From a virus, in the IMG/VR virus record IMGVR_UViG_3300042673_002246: a DNA stretch of 64,000 bases. One strand, written 5' to 3'. The notes below the pieces were generated by a model. That model did not search any database. It was not told the DNA's origin and saw nothing but the letters and a program-made list of their open reading frames with translations. The number at the start of each line of letters is the position of its first letter. Position 1 is the stretch's first letter. The translations under genes were made by a program, and so were the position numbers. Shown here piece by piece: positions 12,438-53,527 of the stretch.

Positions 12438-13071
12438 CCAGACCTGAAAGCTCGACTAATTCGGCATCAATTATGTCCGAACTATCTGTCCCTAGAAGAG
12501 ACTTTACTGTACTTTCGGGCAACACGCCGGATATAGCCATCAGTTCCAAAAGTTTTTTTGCTTCGGACTCTGGGTCAAAACCAATCGCCGGTCTTTCAAC
12601 TCCTGGCTGGCCGGCAATAACTGCTCGTATATTCGTATTGTTGTTGACATCCATTTGCACATTGACGTTCGTCTGTTCCATGCCAAGGAGTTTTGTCCTC
12701 CTGTCCATGATTGATAAAACCTGCTGAATAGCCTTGAGGTCTGGCTCAATTTGAATTTCCGTGCCATCCTCCTGAACCTCCCTGCGATGTTGCGTCATTG
12801 GCCAAATCGCCTGCTGTAGGTTGTCCAGCCGCTCGAGCTCAAGCCGAAGAACTTCGGGGTAAGCAAGAATTGCTTCCTTGTTCATTTTTTCCAATTGGCG
12901 CTGAACTGAACGAGTGACAGATGATGTGGATACCCCGAATCTTCTGGCTATTTCCTGCACTGACGTTCCAGCCTGGCGCATCTTAAAGATGCGTATATCG
13001 CGCTCGTTCAGAAATTCACGAGTCGTTATCGGCTTTGTTTTATCATCACTCATGTTGTTGTCTTCATCCAC
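12385..13071 (-). CDS. HTH protein, putative terminase small subunit
   Basis: N-terminal HTH (AGTSVQEIARRFGVS), then LELERLD.L and AIQQVLSIMDRRTKLLG helices typical of actinophage TerS-like proteins. Confidence 0.6.
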   Translation of the reverse strand: MDEDNNMSDDKTKPITTREFLNERDIRIFKMRQAGTSVQEIARRFGVSTSSVTRSVQRQLEKMNKEAILAYPEVLRLELERLDNLQQAIWPMTQHRREVQEDGTEIQIEPDLKAIQQVLSIMDRRTKLLGMEQTNVNVQMDVNNNTNIRAVIAGQPGVERPAIGFDPESEAKKLLELMAISGVLPESTVKSLLGTDSSDIIDAELVELSGLDESEEDYGEEADKDFDE

Positions 13072-32829: not shown

Positions 32830-33334
32830 CGTTGTTATCCTCCAATTGGCGCAAAATATTCATTGCGTTCCAGGCGTCGTCGCGCTGTTGCAGCGATTTA
32901 AATGAATAAATATCCCTCTCAGACTTTACCATTCCTCCGCAGCAACTAGTTTGAACTTGAACAACATCAGTCTTTGTGTTTAAAAACTCCTGAATGCGGT
33001 CAGATTTTTGTTTAAGCGATTTTTGTTTTTTACCCAATTTTGAAACAACATTTAGACCGTCAAGCATTTTTTTGTCTATTGGCTTAGTTTTTAAAATAAA
33101 TGTGTCGTACCATGAACCCTTGGTTGGATTTTGTGGTGAATCCCAAAGAAATCGTAAAAATCTTGACGAGCGGTTCTTTCTGACGCCGATTGCTTTTGCT
33201 GCAAAAGAGAAAAAGTACACGAATACGGCACTTCCGTCCGGACGAACAACTGCACCATCTTTGGAATTTTTATTCGCGTCGATTATGTAATAAATACGGT
33301 CTTGGCCTACTGAACCAGCCAATACAGCTTTCAT
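32822..33334 (-). CDS. Hypothetical protein
   Basis: 170-aa coupled ORF. Confidence 0.6.
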   Translation of the reverse strand: MKAVLAGSVGQDRIYYIIDANKNSKDGAVVRPDGSAVFVYFFSFAAKAIGVRKNRSSRFLRFLWDSPQNPTKGSWYDTFILKTKPIDKKMLDGLNVVSKLGKKQKSLKQKSDRIQEFLNTKTDVVQVQTSCCGGMVKSERDIYSFKSLQQRDDAWNAMNILRQLEDNNDV

Positions 33335-40724: not shown

Positions 40725-42347
40725 TTAGAGATTGTCGATTTGCTCTTCGAGCAGCTGAAACTCAACCAGTGAGGCGAGGAAGTTTGCATCATTTGGCACC
40801 TCATTCTTTTCTGAAGCACCAGCAATCCAGTTTGCTGGAATCAAGCTTTCGAGCTTCAGAGCCCGCGCCCGCTTCATGATGTGCTTCTTCGCTGCTTCTT
40901 TATCCTTGGCGCGACCAAATGCCTGAATTGCATTGCGCAAATCAGCTTCGGTAACAATTGGGTATGAACCGTCCGGAAGAGCCATGCCTTCTTTTGCAAG
41001 GTCCATTCGTCGTTCTTCGTTGAAAGCACGCTTCAAGGCAAGCTCTGCTGCTTCTGCTTCAATTGCTTCAGCTTCATCTTGCTCGTATCTGTCGTATCCC
41101 AGAACCTCTCCATCGAGGGCAACGAAAACATCGTATGACTTCCCGTCGAATCCTTCGATTTCAACTGCGTACGAATCAAATCCTTCGAATACGTCTGGCT
41201 CAACAGCCACGACATGTCCATCGAATGATTTTACTGCGATTTCTGCAGCTTCAGTGAAGTCAATCAACTTGTACTCAGACGCCTCTGATTTTTGCTCAAA
41301 TTCATTTACGTCAAGTTTGTGGAAACCCATAACTTCAGCAGTTGTTCCGTCAATGAATATTTCCTTGACATCTCCACTCTTTGTTTGCACATCAACCACA
41401 AACATGTCCGCATCTGCAGAATAGCCAGAGTCGATAACACGACCATTGAACATCTGTTCAGCAAGTCCTTCAACATGAAGGATTCCTGGCATTCCTTTTT
41501 CCGCAATGCATCCACCTGGGCAGTCATCGCATACTGGGGCCGAGCCAGCATAAGCCTTGCGCTCCAGGGAGCAGACGTAACCTGACGCACCAATGTCCGA
41601 TGGCTTTATGCCCATCGACTTAATACGTGTTTCACGGAGGGCATCCCAGTATTCATTACCGGCATCAAAAGACTTTTCCTCAGTATCTTCTTCTTCGTCT
41701 TCGTCCATTTCTTCTTCGTCTTCTGCGCCCTCTTCGGCTTCTTCTTCCATGTCCATGTCTTCTTCTTCCATGTCCATGTCTTCTTCGTCTTCTTCGTCTT
41801 CTTCGTCTTCGTCCATTTCGTCTTCTGACATATCCATGTCTTCAGCCTTGAACTTACGGCGTCCCTTTGGACCCATTCCGTACATTTTTTCGGATTCAGA
41901 ATCCATCTCTTCCTCGTCTGCGTCAGTGTCGAGGTTTTCGTCATCTTCTTCGTCCATGTCGTCCATTTCTGGTTCGACATCTTCTTGCATCTCTGGAACC
42001 ATGCGCTTTTTGGCCATTGACTCTTCTTCGTCTTCGGCCATTTCCTCGTCATCCATTTCTGCGTACATTTCTTTCATGGATGGTTTCTTCTTTTTCTTCT
42101 TGTTGCGAGAAACCATGTCCTCTGACATTTCTGGCATCATGTCTTCTGTCATATCTTCCGACATGACGCTTTTCCCATCCAATCCCGAAACTGGAACCAT
42201 CTTCATTTCAACTGGTACCGCGCCGCATTTGGCGCAAATTTTTGCGCCCTTGACAAATCCGCACTCGCCAGAAGCAAGTCCTTTCGCGCACTTCAGCACG
42301 TCTCCGTCGCTGTCGATGCTGACATTAACCTTCTCGTCGTAGCTCAT
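40725..42347 (-). CDS. Acidic head-region protein (scaffold-like) with Cys clusters and PepSY-like repeats
   Basis: Asp/Glu/Met tract; EAAEIAVKSFDGHVVAVE..YAVEI PepSY-like; C-terminal ALPDGSYPI...DLRNAIQAFGRAKD. Confidence 0.7.
   Translation of the reverse strand: MSYDEKVNVSIDSDGDVLKCAKGLASGECGFVKGAKICAKCGAVPVEMKMVPVSGLDGKSVMSEDMTEDMMPEMSEDMVSRNKKKKKKPSMKEMYAEMDDEEMAEDEEESMAKKRMVPEMQEDVEPEMDDMDEEDDENLDTDADEEEMDSESEKMYGMGPKGRRKFKAEDMDMSEDEMDEDEEDEEDEEDMDMEEEDMDMEEEAEEGAEDEEEMDEDEEEDTEEKSFDAGNEYWDALRETRIKSMGIKPSDIGASGYVCSLERKAYAGSAPVCDDCPGGCIAEKGMPGILHVEGLAEQMFNGRVIDSGYSADADMFVVDVQTKSGDVKEIFIDGTTAEVMGFHKLDVNEFEQKSEASEYKLIDFTEAAEIAVKSFDGHVVAVEPDVFEGFDSYAVEIEGFDGKSYDVFVALDGEVLGYDRYEQDEAEAIEAEAAELALKRAFNEERRMDLAKEGMALPDGSYPIVTEADLRNAIQAFGRAKDKEAAKKHIMKRARALKLESLIPANWIAGASEKNEVPNDANFLASLVEFQLLEEQIDNL
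41690..42070 (-). repeat. Low-complexity Asp/Glu/Met coding tract
   Basis: (TCTTCGTCT)n-like repeats encoding DEDEEDEEDMDMEE; boundaries approximate. Confidence 0.85.
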
Positions 42348-42489: not shown

Positions 42490-45400
42490 CTATTCTTTTG
42501 TTCCTGATTTGCCGAACATGGTTCGACCTTCTTCTTGAAGTCTCTTACGTGCGTTTTCTAATTGCTCTTTACTGAAAATGTCCTCAATTGTGTGGCTTGT
42601 GCCAAATATTTCATTGAAACGATTGACCACATCCTGAAGCTCGTTGGATGAGTATCTTGGCTCATCACCCTTAATCTTGCTGAAAGTCTTGCCGCGTGTT
42701 TTTGCTGCATTGTTTAGAAGAACGGAAAGATTGCTCGTACCAAGGATGTATTCCTTATTTCTCTTGGTGTTTCCACCAGAACCCTTCTGGGTGTTTGATA
42801 TGAACTCAACCATCGCCTCGGCAACATTTGCCTTGCTTGCGCGAAGTTCACCGTCAAGCTTTTGACCATTTTCTGGCCAAACGCTTTCCGCATTCTCAAT
42901 CATCCCTGTCCGAATCATCTCCTGGATTGCTGCAACTGGCACTCCGTCACTTTCCCATGACTTCCTGTCTTTCGGATTGGTCAAACCGACATCATCCATC
43001 CCGAATGACCGCTTCATTCTTTCTCTTAGCTGAGCCATCCATTCGTCTCTGTCAAGACCAAGATTTTCGATGAGATTATCCAACTTGAAATCTCTTCTTG
43101 ATGTCTTTGCGCCAGCTGGGTTTGTTTCATTGACCGTCGGTGCTGGTGCTTCTGGAACAAAGTCTGGCATTCCCTCGTAAATAAGGTCAGCCTCGGCAGA
43201 AGCTTCGCCATCAGCGTCTTCTGGGTTTGGCGTAAATCTTCCAGTTGCCCTAAATTTTGCCACTGGGTCGACTTCTCCAAGAGTGGAGTATTCATCTGAA
43301 GAAATGATTTGATTTTCTTCCCTGTCGGCCCAGAACGGATATGCGTCTTTCCCAAATGTTTCAATGATGAATCTGTCGCGCATATTGGCTCTACCGAGAT
43401 TTTCGGCAAAACGTTGAGCTGACGACATCTTCTCCACGCCCGGCTCGTCTGAAGTTACTGGCGAGAACAATCTCCATCCACCAAATTCAGGTCTATTGCC
43501 GAGTTCTGCAACGAGGAATCTGACGGCATTGTGGGATATTCCAGAATCATCATCAGAAATCCTCTTTGCATCCTCTGGCGATAAATTTAGCAATCTTGAA
43601 AGGTCGGTGTTGGAAATTGGTTCCGACTTGGTCCACTTTACATCAGCAATTGTGTTGTCTGGATTTCTGACAACATCAAACTCAGTTGGAATTCTGATTG
43701 ATTCCTTCAGGCTCTTTACTGGAAGCATCCATGTATCTGCATCTGGATTCGAAAGATTTTCATTCCCAGATACGCGACCGATAGTTACTTGTGGTCGACG
43801 CTTCATTGCGGCGGCAGCCTTATCCAGGCCCTCATTTATCTGTCGTCTGCGCTCTTTTACTGTTCCGGACTTACTTGACGTATCTAGCGTTATTCCGCGT
43901 TTTCTAAAACCATCCCAGAATCTTCTGGCAAACGCGAATGACTCTCCAGTCTTTGAGCCTCTAATTGCAGCAAGATTTGTAGCATTGATATTGTCCGCAT
44001 AAGTGGACCCGCTACTCATTCTTCGTGCTTTTCTGTCAGCGCGATTTGAACTGTTTACTGAACGTGGCCCACCAACTGCTGCTGTCCGTTCTGGCGCTTG
44101 GACTCCTGGCGTTTCTGGTGCTGAGGTTTCTGTAGTGGCCTGTCGCTCAACATCTCCGCCACGAAGTCTTGCTCGTCTTGCCGACCTGTTGGTCCCAGTT
44201 CCTGGAACTGCTGTTTCAGGTACGCTATTTACGCGACCGCTTGAAAGTATCTCTCTTGCGCCATCAGGGAATACTTGCTCACCATCTCCAAATGGGTTCC
44301 AAAATCCAGAAGGAGCCTGCTGCTCCTCGGTTAGGAACTTTTCAATATATTCAAAACCCTTTGGATTTTTCTTTGGGTCGATAATCCATGACGTTGCCTC
44401 AGACAACTGAATGCGCTTTTTTGCGCGAGTCATCATGACGTAAATAAGGTTTTCCATTTCACGACTTATGTCATTCCCTGGAAGTATCGAACCATCGTCT
44501 TCAAACTTTGGCTGGAAGAAATCGTCTCCGGCAACCACGTTGTCGAATTCCAAACCTTTGGCTGCGTGTGTTGTTAAGAACGATGCATCAACTTCTGGCT
44601 CGTTTGCTGAGTCAGTTATCATTCTTCCAACAAGGCTGAGGAGCAATCCAGTCTCTTCTGGATTATCTCCCTTTATTCTTACAGCGTCATATGCTGGTGC
44701 ATTCGATGAGCCAGCCTTACGTGGTACGTACTGCTTTTCTATTGTGACTTTTCCTTCCAGATTGAGGTCTTTAATCATTTTCTCAATCCGGCGTCGCATC
44801 ATAGGCTTTTCGCCGTTCTTGTCACCTGTGTACTGAATTTTTCCTGCTGCGTCCCTGAACTGGTAGACATCAATTATTCCTTCACCGGAAATAATTACTC
44901 CATTCTCCCATTTCCCATCTGCACCAAGACTTTCGGTATCCAGTTTCCAGAAAACTTCTCTGCTTGGTGTCTGGCCGGTTGGGTTCGGGATGATGTTAAA
45001 TCGCTTATCACGATTCATCTTGTACGCACCCTTGGCTCCACCGCCGCCTTTACCTGCTTTTTGTTTTCCGAGAGCAATTAGTTCCTCACCAGAAACCGTC
45101 GAAGAACTTCCATCTATATTCTTGAATGGGTCAACATCGAGTGGTTCTTCTATTTCTCGTATTCTTGCTCTAGTTAAGACCTCGCCAGTTTGTGGGTCCC
45201 TTCGACCTAGCAATCTGTTTAGCCAGTCAAGTGGGGAAAGTTGATTTCCTTCTGCGTCTCGAACCTGCAAAAGCTTGAGCATTGAACCCAGTTGACCATA
45301 GGATGATTTTTGACCTGCGCGTTTTCTGATTTCCTCCATTGTCCACGCATTGCCAATAATCTTTGATTCGCGTGGTCGTGTCCCAACAGGACGGAGGACA

Positions 45401-48400
45401 AACTGATAGTGGCGTAGGAATTCAACCATGTCTCTGTATTTTTCGGCAGGCAATCCAACGATTTTGTCTGGATGCGCTCCGATGAATTCCAAGGCAGCTG
45501 TAAGGGTGTTTTTGTTTGAATAAGAAATATATGCCCACGTACCATCTGCGCTTGTTGGTATCTGACGGTAGAGGATTCCTTCCGATTCTGGAACGATGTA
45601 ACCACGAGCCTTGTCCAGTAGCTCATTTCTCTCTTTTTCTGGCATATCTGCCAGTGACTGTCCGTCTGGACCAGAAATTCCGTATTTCTTTTGTATTGAA
45701 TCAAGTTTCTTACGCAAATCATTTCCGGTGAGTGTTCCAAGATTGAAGTCATGAGAAACCACATCCTGAAGTCGGCCAAACAACTTGTAGTCCGCAGAAA
45801 CCTCATCAATCCCATTCTGCCTGTCGGTCATGTTTCCACGACCAAGCATCAAGTTTCCAAGGAACGCAACTGTCTTTCCGTATCTGAATGAGTCAGTCAA
45901 CGTCAAGTTGAAATCTGGATTGAGTCGAGCGAATGAGTCAGATGAACCACGGAATCCATAAATTGATTGCCGTGGGTCACCGACCATGACTATTGCAAGA
46001 TTATTATTCGCAATATTGTCTTCAATCACCTTTTGGAGAACTGGGTTTACGTCCTGAGCTTCGTCAAAGAAGAAAGTCGAAATGGGCTTATCTTCCGTTG
46101 CATATCGGCGACGCAATCCGGCGCGTGCTCCACCACCTGTGTAGACATAATCCACACCATCAACTTGGACTATTGAGCCTGGGTCAAGTTTTTTGTCCTG
46201 TGCTCTTGCATCTTTCACTTTTCTTGTGCCGTGACCAACCATTCCAGCGTCTGTACGCAGATTTGGTTTTTGCATAGCCCAAATCTTTACTTGCTGGTCG
46301 TAGTTGGGCAGCACATTGCTCTTCGGGTCGAGCGTGTCAGACCACATTTTGAGTGCTAGGTCAACCCACTCTTGTGGTATCTGGTCGAATGCTGTTTCGG
46401 CAGGGTCGATTGGGTCGCCAGACTCGGCAAGTTGCTTATTTCTTTCAATTTCGTGTGGACGAAGCTTGAAATGTTTTTCACTAAGCGCATCATCATCACT
46501 CTGTGAATAACGAGTAAGGGCGTTGATGAGAACAAGACCATAATCGTCAGCAGTCAGCTCCACCCCTTCGTGGGTAAGTCCGTCTGGGTATTTCGTGCCG
46601 AAATCGTAGTGTCTCGCTACGTCGCGACCACCGCTTTCTGTTTCAAACGAAACGTATCCCAAAGTTCTGAATCCAGCTTTTTTCAATCCTGTTGTATCGA
46701 CAGTTTTTCCACCATATCCCTCTGCAGACGTTTGTCTTGTTGATTTAGGGTTTGCTGATGAGTAGTACTCGTTGCCGGCGCCAATGCCTATCTTTTTTAG
46801 TTTCTCTTTGAACTCTGGAGAAATTCCTGGCCTGTCTTCGAGCAATAGGGACCAGTATGCCAATTGGTTAATCGAAGAGCTTCCTGTGTTGTCAGGCATT
46901 CTACGTGCTGCTTCTGCAGCATTTTTCTTATTGAATGTTATGTAATAAAACTGTGACTCCGGAGATTCCTTGGCCATACGAATAACAGATTGTTCAACTG
47001 TGGTGGTTTTACCTGCTCCGGCTCCTGCGCGAACAGCAGCCAATCCACCTTCACCAGTTTTTGTGAAGTGTGCAACTGTGTCCATAACGTCTTTTTGTTC
47101 ATCAGTCGGCTCAAACTTCATTCCAAACATTTCCATGAACGAACCCTCAGTTCGCTCAATCTTGCGCTTAGGGTCCTTGGCGCCAACAATTGGTCCGCGG
47201 CCAGAAGAAAGACGCTTGTTAATTTGGTTATACGTGTTGCCTTCTTCGTCCTTGATAACGAATCCGGTTATGCCGCTTGAAAGACGATTATTCTCGTAGT
47301 CCTCAAGGATAGTTTTTACTGCAGATGGACCTTGTCCACGAACACGCACGCGTTGACGTACTTTGTTTTCTGGTGTTGGTGTGCCGACAACTGGCTTTTT
47401 CTTTGGAATTGGGATAGTGATTCGACCAACGATTGGCGCTTCAATTGTGTAGTCTTCTTTACCCTTGCGTTCGCTGTCTGGAACACCAGCGCGCTTGCGC
47501 AGCGTTGCTGACTTATTCATAATGTAGTCAACAGCCTGCTGTCCGCCTTCAATTGCACGACGGATTGAGCTTGGGTCGTCCTGCAGTGCTTTGCGCCAGA
47601 ACGCTAGGTACTGAATATGGTCTTCGCGTATTTGAGGCTCTACACCGAGGAATCCCATCGCAAATGAAGCACCGATTTCTGCGATGAGTTCTTCAAATGC
47701 GTATTTCTTTCTCTGTTCTGGGGTGCCCTTCATTCTGCCGCTTAGGTCCCTCTTTAGTCGCGATGGATGGGCTGTCCAGTGAATAATTTCATGCAGAACT
47801 GTTCCATAGAAAGCAATTGGTTCAATAAAGTTCTCAAATGGAGGAACATTTATCGTGTCGTCGTTTGGGTCGTAGAATGCGCTGACTCCCTGTTCCTTGT
47901 ATCTAGGACCAATTTCTTTGATTACATTTTCAATGTCTTCAAGTCGTTGTGCCGCATCAAGTTTTTCTGTTTCTTTGACTTCGTAGACCCATGCTGGCAG
48001 TCCGTCCATTTGGTCGGCGTTGAATACTGTTTCAATTTTGAAACCCTTTTCACCAGTACGAATTCCGTCATCATTTTTTATGTCAAACGGAACGAGGATA
48101 TTGACACCAAGTTCTCCTGGTTTTGGTTTTGCTTTCTTATTCAACTCACGCCACTGCGAACGTCCAGCCCAACGATTTGTTTTGTATTTGCGCTTTGATG
48201 CGACCTGGGAAAGAATCAATTGATTCATGCCTTGATAAATACGATTTCTTCTTGTTGGATTTCGACCGTACAACTCTGGCGAGCGCCAAGGCACTTGCCA
48301 CTGGCCAGCTTTGCTTGGGTCCTTTAATATCTCATCAAGCGCAGCAATAATTGCTTCACCCATTTGCTGGTACATGTCTTTAATACGAGCTGCATCTGCT

Positions 48401-51354
48401 TCTTGATTTTCATCTTTTCCAGATGACAGTGTCTGGCCATCCCTGTATTCCCAGAGTGGTCCTAAGTAGTCTTGCTTTTCACGACGAGTGCGCTTGTTTT
48501 CTGGCTTTTTTAGGAAATTCTCAAATCCACTAGAAAGTCTTGGCGCGCTCTCGGCAGCACGCGATGCACTGCCTCTTCGAATCTCGGACATGTATCTTTG
48601 TTCTGCCTGGCGCACCTCCGTTCTTGTTACACCAAGTTTTTTGGCCATATCCTCAATGGATACGCCATTCATACGCTCTTCGTAAATATCCTGGTCTGTA
48701 TAGTCTTCTGGGTTCTTTTCTGGTGGAGCGATTTTCCCTCGTTTTGGACGTGGCATTTCTTCGCCGAGGAAATCTCTAATAATTCTGTCGTATGTATCAG
48801 TTCCGCTCTCATCGAATGGAAGGTTGTCGTCGCCGTAGGGATTATCTGGGTCGAAATCGTCATCGAGCGCAGGAAGTCTTCCGGATGAGAGTTTTCTATC
48901 TGGCTTGTTTGGGCTTGCACCGTCGAACCCATATGAGTTCATCCAGCGAGCAAGAGCCTCTTTATCGTTTGGGTCCCATGTTCCAGTTGACGGGCGACGC
49001 TCATAGACTTCGCTGCGTAGCGCACTATCAAGTCCTTTAAGAAACTGGCTCTCGCCGTCTTCGCCAACATAATTTTTATTCTTGTCCTTTTTGTCTTTTC
49101 CAGCAAAATACTTATTTGTTGCATCGAGGTATGTGCCTAGTGTGCGAACAAAATCGTAATACCACTCTTGATACGCCTGTCCGCTCTTTGCTTTTTCGTT
49201 GAATTTTGCTGGGCGCTTCTTATCGTCGCCTTGCCATGCTCTTCTTGCTTGGTTGTACCCAAGCTCGCGCCCTCTTAAGAACTCTGCGGAACGTGTATTG
49301 TCTGTTTGGTAGCGAGGCACTTCTTCCCAGCCGAAGCCCTTATCAACCCATTCCTGTGCAGTCTTGTCAAATGCTTCTCGTCTTGCCTGTTCATCTGGTG
49401 CGACACCAAACTTACTCTCGGTTTCTTTTCCAAGACCGTGACGTGAAGTATTAAATCGTGAGCGTTTCTCAGCTCCAGAAGAGAAGGGTTTTGACGGTGT
49501 TGCCGGTTTTGCATCTTGCACGCCGACGAAGCGGGGTCGTGTTGTTCCTTCATCTACCCAGCCATCGTTGTCGGGGTCGAAGTCGCTCCCCGTTGGTCGT
49601 CGATTTCCTGGTGTTCCGCCGGTTGGCATGTCAATGTCGCCACGGCGATTTCTTCTGTCTCGACGGCCACCGATTGATGGTCTGTCAATGAGTCTGCTGC
49701 CAACGTAGCTTCCTAGTCTTCGGCCAATCGCTTTTGACTCAAACTCAGAGCTATCTAGAAATTTTTTTTTTATGTTTTCCAGAGCGTTATCGACTGCTTC
49801 AATAAAATCTAAACTAACCCCGGATTTGAGAACGATTCCATCAATATCCACTTCTGCATCAACCATGTAGTAATCGAGAATTGGGTCAATTTCTTGCTTG
49901 ACACGGAACGCGTCATTTGGGTGAAGCGGAATGCAGTATTGCTCATCGAATGAGTTGTCATCTTTGCCAAATTCAGAAAGTGATTTAAATTTGCTACGCT
50001 TCTTTTTTCTCCTACCTACCGCTCCGCGAAGCATGGCCATGACAAACTCGCCAGGGTACTTAACTTCTAGGTCTTCAATAGCTTCATCGAAATTTGCGTC
50101 TTCTTCAATTTCGTATTCTTTTTTAGCAATTCCATCGACATTGACAACGCCTTTTGGAATTACTGCAAAACGACATTTGCCTTCTGGTTCGATGTCCATA
50201 TCAACAATCTTGCATGACCCATCATTTTGGAAGAACACGCAATTTGCACACTTGACCCCGATTGATGCGATGGGATTTTCTGAAGCCGGTTTATATCCAG
50301 CCCACACACCATCTTTGTCTTCGTTGAACTTGCCGTGGCGTTTTACAATTTTTAGCAAAGCGTCACGCAGGTCCGCTTCCTCTTTATCGAGGTTGTTCTT
50401 ATCTATTGGCTTGTTATTGCCCTCTTCGTACTGAACTGCAGGGAGCGGAACAACAACAACACCCTCCATGCCTGGCTTGACAGCTATTGGCATTGATGGC
50501 ATCTGCTGTGGGCGGACCATTCTTCTTGGCTCATTTGGCGGAACCATCATTGGTGCTGTTTGTGGTGCGGACGGTCTCTGCATCACTATTTCTTCTGGCG
50601 GGCCGAACATCATTCGACCACCCGTTCGACTCCAGCCACACTTGAATCTCTTAACTGAACCGTCAGCCACACGACGAGCAAATGTCAGATTTTCGTCGTC
50701 CATTTCCATGAGCGATATTTTTGCGCCAAGCATTCCTGAGAGTTGCTTTTCAATTTCCAACTTGTTCGGCTTTTCATCATCCATCATCATGACGGAGCTA
50801 TCTTCGCCGTATGGGTCATCTGTCTTCACGGAAATTGTGCCAGTCAGTTGATTGGCTCCATGAAGAACTGGAGACACTTCATAAAGCTCCAACTCGTAAA
50901 TTACGTTTGCCTGAGACTTTTGGTCATACTGTGCGCGCAGGGTTTTATATCCAATCGACCATTCTTGTTCTTCTCCAAAGAAAGCAACCATCGTGAAAGC
51001 TTCGCGGCCCTTTTCTGACTGAAGATTAAATTGAACTTTTGCAAATAATCCGCCGATTCCAGCAATCTTCATTTTTAGTGGTAGGCGTGGGTCAGACGGT
51101 GGCACCTCGTAAATTTCGAGTACTTTGCCGATTGGGTCATTCCAGTTATGGCCCCACACAACACGCGGCTTGCGGCGCTGAAGACTCTTCGTAAAAGCAC
51201 CACTTGCGCAAATATCACCAACAGAGTCTTTATTGCCGATTCCAGCTACAAAGCACTCAACAATTCCTTGCATCTCATCGAGATTGACGGAGCCGGCTTT
51301 CTGTGAAGCGGAGCCAAGGGATGTCGACTTGTATTCAAAGTGGTCAGTGGTCAT
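42490..51354 (-). CDS. Giant protein C (2954 aa): HK97-type prohead protease fused to HiPIP-like motif, shared leader, ArdC-like antirestriction module and UvrD-like SF1 helicase
   Basis: GNKDSVGD...WGHNW..PIG...WSIGY...LYEVSPVLHGAN (protease); YQGMN, LHEIIHWT, YAFEELIAEIGA (ArdC); AGAGAGKTT, DEAQD, VGDPRQSIYGFRG, SFRYG, THAAKGLEFD, YVMMTRAK (UvrD); 8 xSSG linkers. Confidence 0.9.
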   Translation of the reverse strand: MTTDHFEYKSTSLGSASQKAGSVNLDEMQGIVECFVAGIGNKDSVGDICASGAFTKSLQRRKPRVVWGHNWNDPIGKVLEIYEVPPSDPRLPLKMKIAGIGGLFAKVQFNLQSEKGREAFTMVAFFGEEQEWSIGYKTLRAQYDQKSQANVIYELELYEVSPVLHGANQLTGTISVKTDDPYGEDSSVMMMDDEKPNKLEIEKQLSGMLGAKISLMEMDDENLTFARRVADGSVKRFKCGWSRTGGRMMFGPPEEIVMQRPSAPQTAPMMVPPNEPRRMVRPQQMPSMPIAVKPGMEGVVVVPLPAVQYEEGNNKPIDKNNLDKEEADLRDALLKIVKRHGKFNEDKDGVWAGYKPASENPIASIGVKCANCVFFQNDGSCKIVDMDIEPEGKCRFAVIPKGVVNVDGIAKKEYEIEEDANFDEAIEDLEVKYPGEFVMAMLRGAVGRRKKKRSKFKSLSEFGKDDNSFDEQYCIPLHPNDAFRVKQEIDPILDYYMVDAEVDIDGIVLKSGVSLDFIEAVDNALENIKKKFLDSSEFESKAIGRRLGSYVGSRLIDRPSIGGRRDRRNRRGDIDMPTGGTPGNRRPTGSDFDPDNDGWVDEGTTRPRFVGVQDAKPATPSKPFSSGAEKRSRFNTSRHGLGKETESKFGVAPDEQARREAFDKTAQEWVDKGFGWEEVPRYQTDNTRSAEFLRGRELGYNQARRAWQGDDKKRPAKFNEKAKSGQAYQEWYYDFVRTLGTYLDATNKYFAGKDKKDKNKNYVGEDGESQFLKGLDSALRSEVYERRPSTGTWDPNDKEALARWMNSYGFDGASPNKPDRKLSSGRLPALDDDFDPDNPYGDDNLPFDESGTDTYDRIIRDFLGEEMPRPKRGKIAPPEKNPEDYTDQDIYEERMNGVSIEDMAKKLGVTRTEVRQAEQRYMSEIRRGSASRAAESAPRLSSGFENFLKKPENKRTRREKQDYLGPLWEYRDGQTLSSGKDENQEADAARIKDMYQQMGEAIIAALDEILKDPSKAGQWQVPWRSPELYGRNPTRRNRIYQGMNQLILSQVASKRKYKTNRWAGRSQWRELNKKAKPKPGELGVNILVPFDIKNDDGIRTGEKGFKIETVFNADQMDGLPAWVYEVKETEKLDAAQRLEDIENVIKEIGPRYKEQGVSAFYDPNDDTINVPPFENFIEPIAFYGTVLHEIIHWTAHPSRLKRDLSGRMKGTPEQRKKYAFEELIAEIGASFAMGFLGVEPQIREDHIQYLAFWRKALQDDPSSIRRAIEGGQQAVDYIMNKSATLRKRAGVPDSERKGKEDYTIEAPIVGRITIPIPKKKPVVGTPTPENKVRQRVRVRGQGPSAVKTILEDYENNRLSSGITGFVIKDEEGNTYNQINKRLSSGRGPIVGAKDPKRKIERTEGSFMEMFGMKFEPTDEQKDVMDTVAHFTKTGEGGLAAVRAGAGAGKTTTVEQSVIRMAKESPESQFYYITFNKKNAAEAARRMPDNTGSSSINQLAYWSLLLEDRPGISPEFKEKLKKIGIGAGNEYYSSANPKSTRQTSAEGYGGKTVDTTGLKKAGFRTLGYVSFETESGGRDVARHYDFGTKYPDGLTHEGVELTADDYGLVLINALTRYSQSDDDALSEKHFKLRPHEIERNKQLAESGDPIDPAETAFDQIPQEWVDLALKMWSDTLDPKSNVLPNYDQQVKIWAMQKPNLRTDAGMVGHGTRKVKDARAQDKKLDPGSIVQVDGVDYVYTGGGARAGLRRRYATEDKPISTFFFDEAQDVNPVLQKVIEDNIANNNLAIVMVGDPRQSIYGFRGSSDSFARLNPDFNLTLTDSFRYGKTVAFLGNLMLGRGNMTDRQNGIDEVSADYKLFGRLQDVVSHDFNLGTLTGNDLRKKLDSIQKKYGISGPDGQSLADMPEKERNELLDKARGYIVPESEGILYRQIPTSADGTWAYISYSNKNTLTAALEFIGAHPDKIVGLPAEKYRDMVEFLRHYQFVLRPVGTRPRESKIIGNAWTMEEIRKRAGQKSSYGQLGSMLKLLQVRDAEGNQLSPLDWLNRLLGRRDPQTGEVLTRARIREIEEPLDVDPFKNIDGSSSTVSGEELIALGKQKAGKGGGGAKGAYKMNRDKRFNIIPNPTGQTPSREVFWKLDTESLGADGKWENGVIISGEGIIDVYQFRDAAGKIQYTGDKNGEKPMMRRRIEKMIKDLNLEGKVTIEKQYVPRKAGSSNAPAYDAVRIKGDNPEETGLLLSLVGRMITDSANEPEVDASFLTTHAAKGLEFDNVVAGDDFFQPKFEDDGSILPGNDISREMENLIYVMMTRAKKRIQLSEATSWIIDPKKNPKGFEYIEKFLTEEQQAPSGFWNPFGDGEQVFPDGAREILSSGRVNSVPETAVPGTGTNRSARRARLRGGDVERQATTETSAPETPGVQAPERTAAVGGPRSVNSSNRADRKARRMSSGSTYADNINATNLAAIRGSKTGESFAFARRFWDGFRKRGITLDTSSKSGTVKERRRQINEGLDKAAAAMKRRPQVTIGRVSGNENLSNPDADTWMLPVKSLKESIRIPTEFDVVRNPDNTIADVKWTKSEPISNTDLSRLLNLSPEDAKRISDDDSGISHNAVRFLVAELGNRPEFGGWRLFSPVTSDEPGVEKMSSAQRFAENLGRANMRDRFIIETFGKDAYPFWADREENQIISSDEYSTLGEVDPVAKFRATGRFTPNPEDADGEASAEADLIYEGMPDFVPEAPAPTVNETNPAGAKTSRRDFKLDNLIENLGLDRDEWMAQLRERMKRSFGMDDVGLTNPKDRKSWESDGVPVAAIQEMIRTGMIENAESVWPENGQKLDGELRASKANVAEAMVEFISNTQKGSGGNTKRNKEYILGTSNLSVLLNNAAKTRGKTFSKIKGDEPRYSSNELQDVVNRFNEIFGTSHTIEDIFSKEQLENARKRLQEEGRTMFGKSGTKE
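44251..47199 (-). other. UvrD/Rep-like helicase module in protein C
   Basis: Major SF1 motifs present, bounded by RLSSG and ILSSG. Confidence 0.9.
47287..48417 (-). other. ArdC-like ssDNA-binding/zincin antirestriction module in protein C
   Basis: W..PW...N...Y.G.N, VFNADQ, HEIIH, EELIAE; bounded by TLSSG and RLSSG. Confidence 0.88.
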
Positions 51355-51460
51355 TTAATTCGCTTTCACTAAGACTCAATAGATAATAAACGACCAGATA
51401 AATCTGCAGTGCAAGTATTGAGAATTGCTTTTCTTTTACAGAAACTATTTAGTGAAATAG

Positions 51461-53527
51461 TTAGAACTGAGCGAAGTTCCAGGCTCGGCGTGTCTCTTCT
51501 TCAGCAATTTCGACATGTTCTTTTGCAAGAAGATTTGCATACATTTCAATTAGCTCTTGTCTGAAGGATGAAAATCTTCGCTCTTCGTCAGAATAAACAA
51601 ACGATTTAAGCATTATTTCATTGATATTAAAGGCTGTCTGCTCATTTATTTTTTTGATATTTGCAACGTGTGAATCAACAGCTCTCAAGAAATCTAGAGG
51701 CGGTATAGCTCTTGGCGACAAACCCTTTACATGCATTCTTTCGCGTTTTGATTCATGCGAGTCATTGATAATCGCGGAAACAACTGGCTTTAGGTCATCT
51801 TCAAATTGCTTATTCCATGAGTCAATCGAGAGTATTGAATCGATGTCAAGCGTTCCAGCCATGAGCCCTTTTCTTGCCTTGCTTCCACCAGACTTTTCCA
51901 GTACAACTCGTTGCTGTCTTTCCAGAATTCTCTCAATTCCTCGTGAAAGTATTTCCGACCAACGCTCAATTGAAGTTTCTGTTCTGTCTTCGACAGCTGG
52001 CTCAGCTGATTTGTACTGCATCTCGCCGCTTTCTGCGGTGAGCGCTCCAGGTGGAGTTGGTGCAGCTCCAGTTTGTAATGCGGCTGCTTCTGGCGGGAGT
52101 GTACTTTGAGCAAGCTCGCCTGTTTGTGCAACCTCGGCCATTGCACCCTGCATCGTGTTCGGGTCAAGGGGGATATTTTCCATCGGTGGGGCCTGACCTG
52201 GCATTGGCGGCATTCCAGGAATTGGTGGCATACCGGGAGCTCCAGGCATACCTGGGGCTGCACCAGGGACCATTGCAGCGTTCTCGTCCATCTTCTTCTT
52301 TGTATTCGCAATCGGAATTAAGTTTGGATTAGCGAGGAGTGAGTCAGCAAGGTCGGACTCAACTTCTTTTCTTGAGGAACCAATTCGGTATTCGTTTCCG
52401 CTTATCAATCCAGCCTGAAACTCTGTAAGCAAATATCTATCGCGCTCTTGCTTGTACAACTGAAGAATTGGAACTTCGCTCGTATCGAAGTCGACATAGT
52501 TTTTATCGTCCAACTCATCAAGTGCTCGCGCAATCGGTTCTAGGTGCGGCAACATTGTTTCCATCCAGAAGACACGTATTTCTTCCGCAGCATTGCTGAA
52601 TGTTCTTCCAGCTGCGTTTCCTATTACTGATTCCGGCACACCGAATGCAGCAAGAATTTCTTCTTTCGTAACTTGGCGCATCTGGATATACGCGGCATCG
52701 CGCGGGCTCGCTGATGTGTCAACAAAATCAACGCCATCGTCTGCTGCGATTACTGTTGTATGTCCAGTCTTGGATAGGTTGCCACGGAACCTGCTCTTTA
52801 ATTCTTCTTTATCGTCTTCATCTATTTCTCCACGGACTACAAGCAAGCCGCCAGGACGGCCGTCATTAAGGAGATAGTTTCTGTTGTAGAGCTTCGCAAG
52901 ATTTTCAATTTCAATAGCTACACCAGCAGCCTCGAGCGGAGTAAGTGACAGATATGGGTCAAGTGGGTGTGGACGGCGAATCCAGCAAACATCTTCTGGC
53001 TTAAGTATTACCTTTTCTCCGTAGGGCATGGCAACTTCATAGCCGGAAACAAATGTTTTCGGATGAGGGATTGGCGCCGTTGCCTGTGGTGGTAGAAGAT
53101 TAAGGGCGATTATTCCGCCGTCTCTTCCGCGTATTTTCTCAATAAATGCTCCGCGCGTACCAAGAAGAAGCTGTGCAGAAAGCCTATATCTAAAGATAAA
53201 ACTATTTTCCCCAACGTTGGCTCTTGTGTTTAGTAGCTCGAGCAACGTGGAGCGATTTGCTTCTTTACCAACTATTATCTCGCCCTTGTTGGAATTATCT
53301 TTTCGAAGAATCACTGGCAGTCGTGCCTGATTACCGGCAATTGCATCAATACACCTGTTTACCCAGGTGATTTTGGACATGCCCTCGCGATATGCGCGTT
53401 CAATGTCCCATGAATCTCGATATGGTTTATGTACAAGACCTGGGTTTGCCGAAATTGGTGCACCAAAGGCAATCTGCTTTGAGTCAGACGACTTGAGTGA
53501 TTTATCTTTTGGAGAGTTCCAGCCCAT
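51461..53527 (-). CDS. Portal protein (HK97-like) with Pro-rich linker and C-terminal extension
   Basis: WVNRCIDAIA, GAFIEK.R, LTPLEAA, NDGRPGGLL, EILAAFGVPES.IG, NEYR. Confidence 0.92.
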   Translation of the reverse strand: MGWNSPKDKSLKSSDSKQIAFGAPISANPGLVHKPYRDSWDIERAYREGMSKITWVNRCIDAIAGNQARLPVILRKDNSNKGEIIVGKEANRSTLLELLNTRANVGENSFIFRYRLSAQLLLGTRGAFIEKIRGRDGGIIALNLLPPQATAPIPHPKTFVSGYEVAMPYGEKVILKPEDVCWIRRPHPLDPYLSLTPLEAAGVAIEIENLAKLYNRNYLLNDGRPGGLLVVRGEIDEDDKEELKSRFRGNLSKTGHTTVIAADDGVDFVDTSASPRDAAYIQMRQVTKEEILAAFGVPESVIGNAAGRTFSNAAEEIRVFWMETMLPHLEPIARALDELDDKNYVDFDTSEVPILQLYKQERDRYLLTEFQAGLISGNEYRIGSSRKEVESDLADSLLANPNLIPIANTKKKMDENAAMVPGAAPGMPGAPGMPPIPGMPPMPGQAPPMENIPLDPNTMQGAMAEVAQTGELAQSTLPPEAAALQTGAAPTPPGALTAESGEMQYKSAEPAVEDRTETSIERWSEILSRGIERILERQQRVVLEKSGGSKARKGLMAGTLDIDSILSIDSWNKQFEDDLKPVVSAIINDSHESKRERMHVKGLSPRAIPPLDFLRAVDSHVANIKKINEQTAFNINEIMLKSFVYSDEERRFSSFRQELIEMYANLLAKEHVEIAEEETRRAWNFAQF

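What the first reader, a model, noticed from the sequence alone, without database searches (positions are those of the whole stretch)
42490..51354. Prohead protease fused to ArdC antirestriction domain and UvrD helicase
Seen: the first ~180 aa are an HK97-type maturation protease located next to portal, yet the ORF is 2954 aa and carries an ArdC-like module and an SF1 helicase with its major motifs intact. Established: the protease is co-assembled inside the procapsid, and ArdC protects incoming ssDNA of conjugative plasmids from restriction. Inference: the fusion guarantees encapsidation of DNA-protecting and unwinding enzymes for ejection with the genome.
Basis: partly seen in the sequence, partly recalled or inferred. 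Interest (0 to 1): 0.85.

Follow-up and report, generated by a model that had tools for sequence, protein, structure and literature searches.

The report
Protease-led phage cargo polyprotein
An uncultured 134-kb tailed phage fuses its head-maturation protease to an anti-restriction enzyme, a DNA helicase and several unknown modules in one 2954-residue protein, with a short repeated tag at every module joint and a slippery run of ten A's at the protease/cargo junction, so it probably ships and cuts a polyprotein much as retroviruses do, though no cut or packaging has been measured.

Summary
ORF 42490-51354(-) is one intact 2954-aa frame with an S78 prohead protease (res 20-222), a full-length ArdC (977-1358) and a UvrD-type SF1 helicase (1383-2370), directly after the portal gene. 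It is not an assembly chimera: more than 100 protein clusters and at least 592 IMG/VR contigs carry the same protease-first architecture.

- **Tag at module joints.** [L/F/M]-S-S-G occurs 8 times here (0.14 expected), always at module borders. It also occurs in two other giant proteins of this genome. Across 89 relatives, 4 of 870 tags lie inside known domains (228 expected).
- **Slippery run.** The only homopolymer of 10 or more bases in the 134-kb genome is an A10 at codons 528-531. It is conserved in 47 of 53 distinct relatives, and some have A9 with the cargo out of frame.
- **Shared leader.** An 83-aa leader is shared with giant A.

Best reading: a slippage-dosed, capsid-loaded, protease-cut cargo polyprotein. 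This is a variant of the "polyvalent proteins". Which protease cuts is open, because a conserved zincin motif in giant B is a rival. Packaging and cleavage are inferred, not shown.

This scan has already reported the same family on other genomes. I found no paper describing it.

The parts
42490..51354 (-). Whole ORF, 2954 aa: protease-led cargo polyprotein (protein C, P0001)
50689..51297 (-). Prohead (capsid maturation) protease domain, res 20-222 (Pfam S78 31-174). H69, S133 and H165 are invariant in 43 relatives.
   Evidence: 40% identity to Gordonia phage maturation proteases; T4 gp21 5JBL Z 9.4, herpesvirus proteases Z 5-6.6
49774..50688 (-). Conserved middle region, res 223-527. It contains a cystatin/NTF2-like alpha+beta domain (~190-260), a 4-Cys motif (CANC at 369) and a helical/alpha-beta part (400-532). 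It is a possible scaffold or procapsid-anchoring part of the short form.
   Evidence: no Pfam match
49762..49771 (-). A10 slippery run (T10 on the + strand) at codons 528-531 (I-K-K-K-F). Adding one A gives a stop after 7 codons and losing one A gives a stop after 5.
49498..49746 (-). Leader segment, res 537-619, 71% identical to res 22-102 of giant A. It is basic and Gly/Pro-rich with a DPDxDGWVDEGT loop, and the model is disordered here.
49474..49485 (-). Tag 1, F-S-S-G at res 624-627 (end of the conserved N-terminal unit)
48889..49482 (-). Cargo module 1, res 625-822, no known family
48880..48891 (-). Tag 2, L-S-S-G at res 822-825
48535..48888 (-). Cargo module 2, res 823-940, with a weak helix-turn-helix / sigma-70 region-4-like signal (sub-threshold). 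Relatives carry PF04545 at this kind of position.
48526..48537 (-). Tag 3, L-S-S-G at res 940-943
48418..48429 (-). Tag 4, L-S-S-G at res 976-979, 16 residues before the ArdC-N match
47281..48426 (-). ArdC module, res 977-1358: ArdC-N ssDNA-binding domain (992-1108) plus zincin MPTase-PolyVal (1140-1267, HEIIH at 1188)
47272..47283 (-). Tag 5, L-S-S-G at res 1358-1361
47200..47211 (-). Tag 6, L-S-S-G at res 1382-1385
44245..47208 (-). UvrD/Rep-type SF1 helicase module, res 1383-2370, with large insertions and no tag inside
44236..44247 (-). Tag 7, L-S-S-G at res 2370-2373
44008..44019 (-). Tag 8, M-S-S-G at res 2446-2449
42493..44016 (-). C-terminal cargo module, res 2447-2954, no known family
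5396..12013 (-). Giant A, 2205 aa. It has the same leader at res 22-102 (window 11708-11950) and 7 tags, and carries an RNase_T exonuclease, a ParB C-terminal domain and a HEWGH motif.
33331..40707 (-). Giant B, 2458 aa, with 3 clear tags after res 1301. Its N-terminal core carries an invariant HExxHxxQ ... E..AEL motif (H582), conserved in the positional homologues of five lineages.
40725..42347 (-). Acidic 540-aa protein (E/D/M-rich, scaffold-like) between C and B, with G-L-A-S-G at res ~24. Positional homologues are 459-550 aa.
51461..53527 (-). Portal protein, directly upstream
27168..28517 (-). Major capsid protein (phrog_10, E 4e-59), with no tag and no delta-domain part

Best explanation
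Protein C is the head-maturation protease of an uncultured ~134-kb tailed phage, extended by a string of cargo modules that are loaded into the procapsid and later enter the host with the DNA. The cargo order is two unknown or HTH-like modules, a complete ArdC, an SF1 helicase and a 508-aa unknown module. The proposed mechanism has four steps, with shown and inferred parts marked. (1) SHOWN: a conserved A10 run sits at codons 528-531, and a shift of one base in either direction stops translation within 5-7 codons. INFERRED: RNA-polymerase slippage, or -1 ribosomal slippage on A_AAA_AAA, gives two products from one gene. One is a ~531-534-aa protease plus middle region, and the other is the full 2954-aa protease-cargo chain. 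Their ratio would set the cargo dose per head, in the way Gag and Gag-Pol are dosed. (2) INFERRED: the N-terminal unit takes the chain into the assembling procapsid. The 83-aa leader that follows the run, shared with giant A, is a cargo-loading signal that works in trans for A. (3) SHOWN: [L/F/M]-S-S-G tags lie only at module joints here and in relatives, recur in giants A and B, and change with lineage in step in the protease protein and its neighbouring giant. INFERRED: the tags are cleavage sites that release each module as a separate protein inside the head. I favour the fused S78 protease as the cutter, by analogy with assemblin-type cutting before Ser, but a zincin is a live rival. (4) INFERRED from established ArdC and polyvalent-protein biology: on infection the free ArdC, helicase and other modules are ejected with the genome and protect or process the incoming DNA.
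For: Real gene under purifying selection along its full length. Domain identities and head-operon position. Architecture: 112 related clusters of 1865-4926 aa, and the protease is N-terminal in all 104 that carry it. At least 592 IMG/VR contigs encode relatives, and 634 representatives match at E<=1e-30 with lengths from ~180 to 5358 aa. Tags in this protein: 8 against 0.14 expected. Tags in this genome: 18 in the three giants against 7 in all other ORFs of 60 aa or more. LSSG is the commonest 4-mer in nearly every relative, at 4-21 copies, and a logo of 868 sites gives [R/K/S]-L-S-S-G-[R/A/K]. Only 4 of 870 tags lie inside protease, ArdC or helicase stretches, against 228 expected. A tag lies a median 7.5 aa before ArdC in 80 of 81 relatives and 18 aa before the helicase in 57 of 57, with none inside the helicase. 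Lineage-specific variants (GFASRG, GLASR, GMRS, GLRSG) replace LSSG in other branches. The neighbouring giant of the same genome uses the same variant: GMRS x14 and x8 in L003, GLAS x15 and x3 in L002. Tag type follows the protease tree, which is consistent but not independent evidence. The slippery run is the only homopolymer of 10 or more in 133,891 bp. It sits at the same nucleotide in relatives of 87% and ~60% identity. An A9-A11 run is present in 47 of 53 distinct loci, with stops within 4-9 codons in both shifted frames. Three loci have A9, with the protease ORF ending at 536-548 aa and the cargo open in the -1 frame for at least 2549 codons in L071 (471 and 537 codons to the contig end in L062 and L056). 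Runs of 9 A or T are selected against in bacterial genes unless they are used for expression (PMC1088944). The leader is 59/83 identical to the N-terminus of giant A, and in both proteins it lies just before the first tag. Precedent for virion-packaged polyvalent proteins with ArdC, MPTase and helicase domains comes from PMC5512222. Precedent for prohead proteases cutting ejected head proteins at a consensus motif comes from SPN3US and T4 (abstracts).
Against: No direct evidence of packaging, cleavage, slippage or ejection. The MCP and portal carry no tag, so the tags are not the usual capsid-maturation sites. S78 proteases with known sites, such as HK97, cut after Lys (own knowledge). Invariant K9, K177 and K541 suggest a different, Lys-type site for the fused protease. 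Giant B and all its positional homologues carry an invariant HExxHxxQ motif. Proteins C and A also carry HExxH, so a zincin could be the tag protease. The nearest cultured phages (Gordonia Chidiebere-like) have an ordinary 452-aa protease and no tag enrichment, so nothing can be transferred from a studied system. A9 versus A10 between assemblies of one phage (L056 against L037-L040) could be homopolymer sequencing error.
Confidence: 0.6

Rival explanations
1. The tags are cleavage sites, but they are cut by a zinc metallopeptidase rather than by the fused S78 protease. Candidates are the conserved HExxHxxQ domain of giant B, the ArdC-type MPTase of C, or the HEWGH module of A. The S78 protease would cut only Lys-type sites such as those at K9, K177 and K541.
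For: An invariant H-E-x-x-H-x-x-Q plus a downstream E..AEL block is present in giant B and its positional homologues in five lineages. Iyer et al. propose MPTase autoprocessing of polyvalent proteins. A fixed hydrophobic residue (L/F/M) in the tag fits a zincin P1' preference (own knowledge). K9, K177 and K541 are invariant. An earlier follow-up on another genome reached the same suspicion (e1-5645154).
Against: Twenty-two of 23 protease-led polyproteins without a Pfam MPTase hit have no HExxH at all, and 16 of the 23 still carry 7-16 tags, so a cis zincin is not needed. B's domain has no significant family match, shows no profile similarity to MPTase-PolyVal and gave no usable fold. The invariant Ser that follows a small or basic residue resembles assemblin-type A|S and HK97 K|S cutting (own knowledge).
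Confidence: 0.25
2. The polyprotein is made and cut in the cytoplasm and the cargo is not packaged. The fusion only couples expression of late DNA-handling enzymes to head genes, and ArdC and the helicase act on replicating or packaging DNA in the producing cell.
For: There is no direct packaging evidence. Giant A lies among replication genes (primase-helicase at 13050-14846). Helicases and exonucleases have obvious intracellular roles.
Against: Prohead proteases are normally active only inside assembled procapsids (established for HK97 and T4; own knowledge). The protease-first order is universal in 104 relatives. The gene sits between the portal and the scaffold-like gene in every locus examined. 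ArdC acts on incoming DNA in recipients, and phage polyvalent proteins map to virion genes.
Confidence: 0.12
3. The tags are not cleavage sites but conserved flexible linkers or docking motifs, and the protein works as one intact giant, as the N4 virion RNA polymerase does.
For: No cleavage has been observed. N4 vRNAP with an MPTase domain is packaged unprocessed.
Against: A plain linker needs no invariant four-residue core that is kept while its flanks diverge. It also would not be shared in trans by other giants of the same genome and switched lineage by lineage. The tags lie a fixed short distance before domain starts. The excised ArdC segment matches the size of free-standing ArdC.
Confidence: 0.1
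4. The long ORF is an assembly chimera or a decaying pseudogene.
For: None found.
Against: Independent assemblies from ENA, JGI, Logan and IMG/VR hold the same architecture. Synonymous changes outnumber amino-acid changes three to one and there is no stop across 2954 codons.
Confidence: 0.01

Closest known systems
Polyvalent proteins of phages and conjugative elements (Iyer, Burroughs, Anand, de Souza, Aravind 2017, PMC5512222)
   Same: Many effector domains in one polypeptide. ArdC-N plus MPTase-PolyVal and helicase hubs. Encoded among virion genes. Predicted to be packaged and delivered with the DNA, with proteolytic release of domains proposed.
   Different: That paper reports assemblin-like peptidases as rare and always C-terminal, names MuF and portal fusions as the packaging handle, and names the MPTase as the processing enzyme. 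Here the prohead protease is N-terminal in every member. A short conserved tag marks each joint and is shared in trans by other giants. A slippery A-run sits at the protease/cargo junction. None of these three features is described there.
Prohead-protease-processed internal and ejection proteins: T4 gp21 with IPI-III/Alt and their capsid-targeting sequences; phiKZ/SPN3US gp175/gp245 with ejection proteins
   Same: Cargo is loaded into the procapsid by a short targeting segment. A head protease cuts many head proteins at a consensus motif. The products are ejected into the host (abstracts; own knowledge of T4).
   Different: In those phages the protease and each cargo protein are separate genes with one or a few sites. 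The motifs end in Glu (L/I-x-E, A/S/G-x-E). There is no covalent protease-cargo chain, no 8-21 site polyprotein and no slippage site.
Retroviral Gag / Gag-Pro-Pol
   Same: A structural or protease-bearing N-terminal product and a longer enzyme-carrying product come from one locus through a slippery site. The long form is co-assembled into the particle and cut by the particle's own protease at recurrent sites.
   Different: This is analogy only, not homology. This is a dsDNA tailed phage and the slippery element is a homopolymer A-run. In this genome the long form is the in-frame one. Nothing has been measured.
Plasmid R388 ArdC (PDB 6SNA/6I89)
   Same: The ArdC module aligns over residues 8-295 of 305 (E 1.4e-34), with HExxH and the EELIAE block kept.
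   Different: Here it is one tag-delimited module inside a phage head polyprotein, not a free plasmid protein exported through a type IV secretion system.
Capsid maturation protease of Gordonia phage Chidiebere gp34 and relatives (nearest cultured)
   Same: 40% identity over residues 1-178.
   Different: It is a 452-aa stand-alone protease next to the MCP, with no cargo and no tag enrichment in its head genes.

Membership tests
HK97-type prohead protease (Pfam Peptidase_S78; assemblin-like fold) | Significant match to the family profile | tested here: met
   PF04586 38 bits against a cut-off of 21. phrog_80 E 1e-25. 40% identity to annotated maturation proteases.
HK97-type prohead protease (Pfam Peptidase_S78; assemblin-like fold) | Assemblin / gp21-like fold | tested here: met
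   T4 gp21 5JBL Z 9.4, rmsd 3.4 over 125 residues, model residues 23-166. Herpesvirus proteases Z 4.9-6.6. The model pLDDT is only 65-78 in this domain, and Foldseek alone was weak.
HK97-type prohead protease (Pfam Peptidase_S78; assemblin-like fold) | Conserved catalytic His and Ser | tested here: inconclusive
   H69, S133 and H165 are invariant in 43 relatives. Residue-by-residue equivalence to the catalytic residues of solved proteases was not checked.
HK97-type prohead protease (Pfam Peptidase_S78; assemblin-like fold) | Encoded in the head module next to portal and scaffold | tested here: met
   The portal is directly upstream and the acidic scaffold-like gene directly downstream, here and in five relatives.
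HK97-type prohead protease (Pfam Peptidase_S78; assemblin-like fold) | Proteolytic activity inside the procapsid | not testable with these tools
   Needs expression or virion work.
ArdC anti-restriction protein | ArdC-N ssDNA-binding domain plus C-terminal zincin with HExxH | tested here: met
   PF08401 48.5 bits and PF18818 115 bits. Near full-length alignment to 6SNA. HEIIH at 1188.
ArdC anti-restriction protein | Protects incoming DNA from restriction | not testable with these tools
   Needs an anti-restriction assay of residues 977-1358.
UvrD/Rep-type SF1 helicase | N- and C-terminal UvrD domains with Walker A, DEAQ and motif III | tested here: met
   PF00580, PF13245 and PF13361 above cut-off. 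Motifs at 1444, 1764 and 1792.
Polyvalent proteins (Iyer et al. 2017) | Two or more disparate effector domains in one polypeptide of a phage or conjugative element, with hub domains such as MPTase and ArdC-N | tested here: met
Polyvalent proteins (Iyer et al. 2017) | Linkage to virion (late) genes | tested here: met
Polyvalent proteins (Iyer et al. 2017) | Assemblin-like peptidase, where present, at the C-terminus | tested here: not met
   N-terminal in all 104 protease-bearing relatives. This is a descriptive trait in the paper, not a definition.
Programmed slippage site (transcriptional, A/T run of 9 or more; or -1 ribosomal on A_AAA_AAA) | Homopolymer of 9 or more in a coding region, conserved against synonymous drift | tested here: met
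   A10 here, unique in the genome. 47 of 53 distinct relatives carry A9-A11 at the same junction.
Programmed slippage site (transcriptional, A/T run of 9 or more; or -1 ribosomal on A_AAA_AAA) | Both registers occur in nature and each shifted frame gives a defined product | tested here: met
   In-frame A10/A11 in most loci. A9 with out-of-frame cargo in L056, L062 and L071. Stops within 4-9 codons.
Programmed slippage site (transcriptional, A/T run of 9 or more; or -1 ribosomal on A_AAA_AAA) | Heterogeneous mRNA or two protein products observed | not testable with these tools
Protease-cut virion cargo (T4 IP / phiKZ-SPN3US type) | Recurrent consensus motif at processing positions in several head proteins | tested here: met
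Protease-cut virion cargo (T4 IP / phiKZ-SPN3US type) | Cleavage products and presence in virions | not testable with these tools
   Needs virion mass spectrometry.

The most novel reading that the evidence does not exclude
A large uncultured clade of dsDNA tailed phages uses a retrovirus-like strategy. One locus gives a bare head protease/scaffold and, through a conserved slippery A-run, a protease-cargo polyprotein. The long form is co-assembled into the procapsid and cut at a lineage-specific four-residue code. The same code, together with a portable 83-aa leader, lets further giant proteins be loaded in trans. The result would be a modular, swappable delivery system for anti-defence and DNA-handling enzymes, with up to 21 modules and over 5000 aa per chain.
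Probability: 0.45. Interest if true: 0.85.

Novelty: new variant of a known kind. Interest (0 to 1): 0.72.

Why it matters
If it holds, this is a programmable cargo-loading system in phage heads built from three parts: a handle (protease unit and leader), a dosing device (slippery run) and a cutting code (tag).

- It would explain how these phages carry hundreds of kilodaltons of anti-restriction and DNA-processing enzymes into the host.
- It would assign a role to many giant unannotated ORFs in viromes. At least 592 IMG/VR contigs and 634 representative clusters are involved.
- It would provide a catalogue of tag-delimited modules of unknown function that are likely first-minute anti-defence effectors.
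- It would provide a natural design for loading foreign proteins into phage capsids.
- It extends the polyprotein/Gag-Pol logic, so far a hallmark of RNA and reverse-transcribing viruses, to tailed dsDNA phages.

Tried and rejected
**Similarity to cultured phages.**
- A megablast of the gene against 50,697 phage records found no match.
- tblastn of the whole protein covered at most 14% of it in any cultured phage, and only single modules matched.

**Structure and family searches on parts of protein C.**
- A PDB sequence search of residues 1-640 found nothing.
- Foldseek on the 640-aa model found nothing at E<=0.001. The protease fold came out only in the VIA second look.
- Pfam on the inter-tag segments 175-624, 625-822, 941-990, 1290-1420, 2320-2446 and 2447-2954 found nothing.
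- The atlas search of the C-terminal module gave no usable hit.
- The atlas search of the acidic 540-aa protein found only unnamed viral clusters.

**Giants A and B.**
- Giant B has no Pfam, PHROG or PDB sequence match.
- The profile comparison of B's HExxH region with the ArdC zincin gave probability 0.1.
- Pfam on that region gave only sub-threshold metallopeptidase hints.
- Its AlphaFold model had pLDDT 43 and was not used.
- Giants B and C, and A and B, share no similar segment apart from the tags.

**Other checks.**
- Gordonia phage Chidiebere head genes show no tag enrichment.
- Complex prediction was not used. The partner of the leader is unknown, and an enzyme-substrate pair is a poor use of that tool.
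- Literature searches for this architecture found only Iyer et al. 2017 and the T4/SPN3US processing papers.
- The protease tree against tag type is a quick, unfinished tree. It shows clustering that shared ancestry alone would also give, so I do not count it as independent evidence.
Full report
**1. The observation**

The window holds one uninterrupted ORF on the minus strand, 42490..51354, of 2954 aa.

Pfam places these domains, all above the curated cut-offs:
- Peptidase_S78 at residues 31-174
- ArdcN at 992-1108
- MPTase-PolyVal at 1140-1267
- UvrD-helicase/AAA_19 at 1438-1805
- UvrD_C at 2259-2319

PHROGs agrees: head maturation protease 20-222, anti-restriction protein 991-1285 and DNA helicase.

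The protease part is 40% identical over residues 1-178 to annotated capsid maturation proteases of cultured Gordonia phages. An AlphaFold model of residues 1-640 aligns best with the T4 gp21 prohead protease (5JBL, Z 9.4, rmsd 3.4 over 125 residues). The next matches are herpesvirus proteases at Z 4.9-6.6. H69, S133 and H165 are invariant in 43 relatives.

The ArdC part aligns with almost the whole of plasmid R388 ArdC (6SNA residues 8-295 of 305, E 1.4e-34), with HExxH intact. The helicase keeps Walker A, DEAQD and motif III.

The gene lies directly after the portal gene, with the large terminase divergent beyond it.

**2. Not an artefact**

The genome is a single 133,891-bp contig.

A word-indexed search found 112 related clusters of 1865-4926 aa from ENA, JGI, Logan and NCBI. 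Most carry S78 + ArdC-N + MPTase + UvrD. The protease is N-terminal in all 104 that have it. IMG/VR holds at least 592 contigs that encode a relative. A full HMM scan of 1.84 billion representatives gave 634 hits at E<=1e-30, with lengths from ~180 to 5358 aa.

An independent assembly (L005) carries an 87%-identical 2951-aa ORF in the same context. It differs by 1185 synonymous-only codons, 364 amino-acid changes and 7 gap columns, with no stop. That means purifying selection along the whole frame.

No cultured phage in 50,697 records covers more than 14% of the protein. The nearest cultured protease, Gordonia phage Chidiebere gp34, is an ordinary 452-aa protein beside the major capsid protein.

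**3. Surroundings**

All genes of the head module are on the minus strand, in this order:
- portal (51461-53527)
- protein C (this ORF)
- an acidic, E/D/M-rich 540-aa protein (40725-42347), probably a scaffold
- giant B, 2458 aa (33331-40707)
- five small or medium ORFs
- the major capsid protein (27168-28517, phrog_10 E 4e-59)

The order TerL / portal / protease-polyprotein / acidic ~460-550-aa protein / giant is kept in five diverse relatives.

A third giant, A (5396-12013, 2205 aa), carries an RNase_T-type exonuclease and a ParB C-terminal domain.

**4. A tag at every joint**

All eight S-S-G tripeptides of protein C are preceded by L, F or M. The expected number of such tags is 0.14. They lie at residues 624, 822, 940, 976, 1358, 1382, 2370 and 2446, always outside the recognised domains. 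They cut the chain into pieces of 623, 198, 118, 36, 382, 24, 988, 76 and 508 residues. The 382-residue piece is the ArdC and the 988-residue piece is the helicase.

The same tag occurs 7 times in giant A and 3 clear times in giant B. In the rest of the genome it occurs 7 times, in all other ORFs of 60 aa or more taken together, which is about the chance level.

In relatives:
- LSSG is the commonest four-residue word in nearly every protein, at 4-21 copies.
- 868 sites give the logo [R/K/S]-L-S-S-G-[R/A/K] in polar, linker-like flanks.
- Of 870 tags in 89 proteins, 4 lie inside protease, ArdC or helicase stretches, where 228 would be expected by chance. The sequences are related, so the exact probability is not meaningful, but the contrast is.
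- A tag sits a median 7.5 residues before the ArdC start in 80 of 81 proteins.
- A tag sits a median 18 residues before the helicase start in 57 of 57 proteins. None lies inside the ~1050-aa helicase.

In other branches of the family the recurrent word is different: GFASRG, GLASR, GMRS or GLRSG. The neighbouring giant of the same genome uses the same variant, with GMRS 14 and 8 times in L003 and GLAS 15 and 3 times in L002. The general form is x-[L/F/M]-[S/A/R]-S.

A motif that marks domain starts, is shared in trans within a genome and changes lineage by lineage behaves like the recognition site of a genome-encoded protease. That it is cut is an inference. No cut has been seen.

**5. Which protease?**

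The fused S78 protease is the one domain common to all members. Twenty-two of 23 members without a Pfam MPTase hit lack any HExxH, and 16 of the 23 still carry 7-16 tags. So a zincin in cis is not required. The constant Ser after a small or basic residue recalls assemblin (A|S) and HK97 (K|S) cutting. That point rests on my own knowledge and was not tested.

However, giant B and all five positional homologues share an invariant H-E-x-x-H-x-x-Q and a downstream E..AEL block. A and C also carry HExxH. B's region has no significant family or profile match and gave no usable fold, so it is a candidate zincin and nothing more.

The only invariant residues outside the protease domain include K177 and K541, and K9 is also invariant. 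This fits a second, Lys-type site noted by first-stage readers.

I therefore keep 'tags cut by a zincin' as a serious rival, at about 0.25.

**6. A slippery run at the junction**

This lead came from earlier notes of this scan, and I tested it here.

In this genome:
- Codons 528-531 (I-K-K-K-F) are written with ten A's (window 49762-49771).
- It is the only A-run of 7 or more in the 8865-nt gene, and the only homopolymer of 10 or more in the whole genome.
- One extra A gives a stop after 7 codons. One fewer gives a stop after 5.

In relatives:
- The run sits at exactly the same nucleotide in the 87%-identical relative, despite 40% of codons differing, and also in a ~60%-identical one.
- Among 53 distinct IMG/VR loci with enough sequence, 47 have A9-A11 at this junction (37 A10, 7 A11, 3 A9). 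It is usually the only such run in the gene, and both shifted frames stop within 4-9 codons.
- In three loci the run is A9. There the protease ORF ends at 536-548 aa, and the cargo continues in the -1 frame, open for at least 2549 codons in L071 (471 and 537 codons to the contig end in L062 and L056). In those genomes the fusion can be made only by slippage.

Runs of nine A or T are selected against in bacterial genes unless they are used for expression (PMC1088944).

The likely outcome is two products: a ~531-534-aa protease plus middle region, and the full protease-cargo chain. Whether RNA polymerase or the ribosome slips (A_AAA_AAA is also a -1 site), and in what ratio, is unknown. One phage appears with A9 in one assembly and A10 in others (L056 against L037-L040). 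That may be homopolymer sequencing error or real variation.

**7. A shared leader**

Residues 537-619 of C begin 6 codons after the run. They are 71% identical (59/83, E 3e-28) to residues 22-102 of giant A. In both proteins the first tag follows within a few residues.

The segment is found at the same place in 46 relatives, including a homologue of A. It is basic, Gly/Pro-rich and predicted disordered. Giant B lacks it.

The simplest reading is a portable cargo-loading signal. Its partner is unknown.

**8. Mechanism, with what is shown and what is inferred**

Shown:
- the domain content
- the head-operon position
- the family-wide protease-first order
- the tag statistics and positions
- the trans-sharing and lineage switching of the tag
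- the conserved slippery run in both registers
- the shared leader

Inferred:
- Slippage doses a short and a long product.
- The long product and giant A are loaded into the procapsid.
- A phage protease cuts at the tags and frees ArdC, the helicase and the other modules inside the head.
- The free modules enter the host with the DNA, where ArdC would counter restriction and the helicase would process the incoming genome.

I put the whole chain at about 0.6. Taken separately, I put packaging at about 0.75, tags as cleavage sites at about 0.75, S78 as the cutter at about 0.45, and functional slippage at about 0.65.

**9. Comparison with what is known**

The closest described class is the polyvalent proteins of Iyer et al. 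2017. It shares the domain repertoire, the virion-gene linkage and the predicted delivery with the DNA. That paper reports assemblin-like peptidases as rare and always C-terminal. It proposes MuF and portal fusions and MPTase autoprocessing. It describes no joint tag and no slippage site.

Functionally the nearest systems are T4 (gp21, internal proteins with capsid-targeting sequences) and phiKZ/SPN3US (gp175/gp245 cutting many ejection proteins at a consensus motif). In those phages the protease and the cargo are separate genes.

The Gag/Gag-Pol parallel is an analogy of logic only.

I found no paper on this family in five literature searches.

The scan itself has already reported the same family on other genomes, with similar conclusions. 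My tests here are independent of those notes, except for the slippage, leader and second-protease leads, which I took from them and then checked.

**10. Verdict**

The finding is real and its domain reading is correct.

It is a new variant of a known kind. It is widespread in viromes, absent from cultured phages and from the literature I could search, and directly testable by expression and virion proteomics.

Noticed in passing
window 5396-12013 (-), giant A: A 2205-aa protein among replication genes, with the same leader (res 22-102) and 7 tags. Its modules include an RNase_T/PolC-type exonuclease (632-816), a ParB C-terminal domain (1002-1059) and a HEWGH motif at 1835.
   Followed up: partly
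window 33331-40707 (-), giant B, motif at res 582-589 (about 38941-38964): Invariant H-E-x-x-H-x-x-Q plus a downstream E..AEL block in B and its positional homologues of five lineages. It is a candidate zincin with no family match and no usable fold.
   Followed up: partly
window 40725-42347 (-): A 540-aa protein with a ~170-residue E/D/M-rich acidic stretch, Cys pairs at both ends and G-L-A-S-G at res ~24. It is probably the scaffold, and relatives have 459-550-aa counterparts rich in EEEE/EDEE.
   Followed up: partly
P0001 residues 9, 177, 541 (window about 51328-51330, 50824-50826, 49732-49734): K9, K177 and K541 are invariant in 43 relatives, while almost nothing else outside the protease core is. 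The contexts are FEYK|S, ISVK|T and FESK|A, and giant A has ETK|A before its leader. This may be a second, Lys-type processing site, as first-stage notes suggested.
   Followed up: partly
P0001 residues ~369-395 (window about 50170-50250): A conserved four-Cys motif (C-x-x-C ... C ... C) in the middle region. It has no Pfam match and a model pLDDT of 60-78.
   Followed up: no
L056 versus L037-L040 (IMG/VR): Loci with identical first 300 residues carry A9 in one assembly (protease ORF ends at 536 aa, cargo out of frame) and A10 in four others (2967-aa fusion). This is either homopolymer error or real run-length variation in the phage population.
   Followed up: partly
window 51396-51407: The intergenic stretch between portal and protein C contains AGATAAATCTGC (read on the + strand). 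This is the motif that another first-stage note calls an early promoter element. Here it lies antisense to the head genes.
   Followed up: no
window 25635-27050 (-), 471-aa ORF after the MCP: It carries a D-x-D-x-D-G...DGT loop like the one in the shared leader of A and C. PHROG matches are to unknown-function families only.
   Followed up: no
relatives P0073, P0075, P0077, P0098-P0101, P0029, P0034 and others: Cargo repertoire varies widely behind the same protease unit. It includes sigma-70 region 4 (PF04545), pentapeptide repeats (PF00805), arrays of winged-helix/HTH domains, KTSC (PF13619), extra DEAD/ResIII helicases and RNase_T (precomputed Pfam lists).
   Followed up: no
NC_071005.1 (Gordonia phage Chidiebere), L004 6263-11914: Between the portal and the head protease this cultured phage encodes an RNA ligase, a VIP2-like ADP-ribosyltransferase, a 971-aa HTH protein and a second 'head maturation protease' as separate genes. 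This may be an unfused counterpart of head cargo.
   Followed up: no
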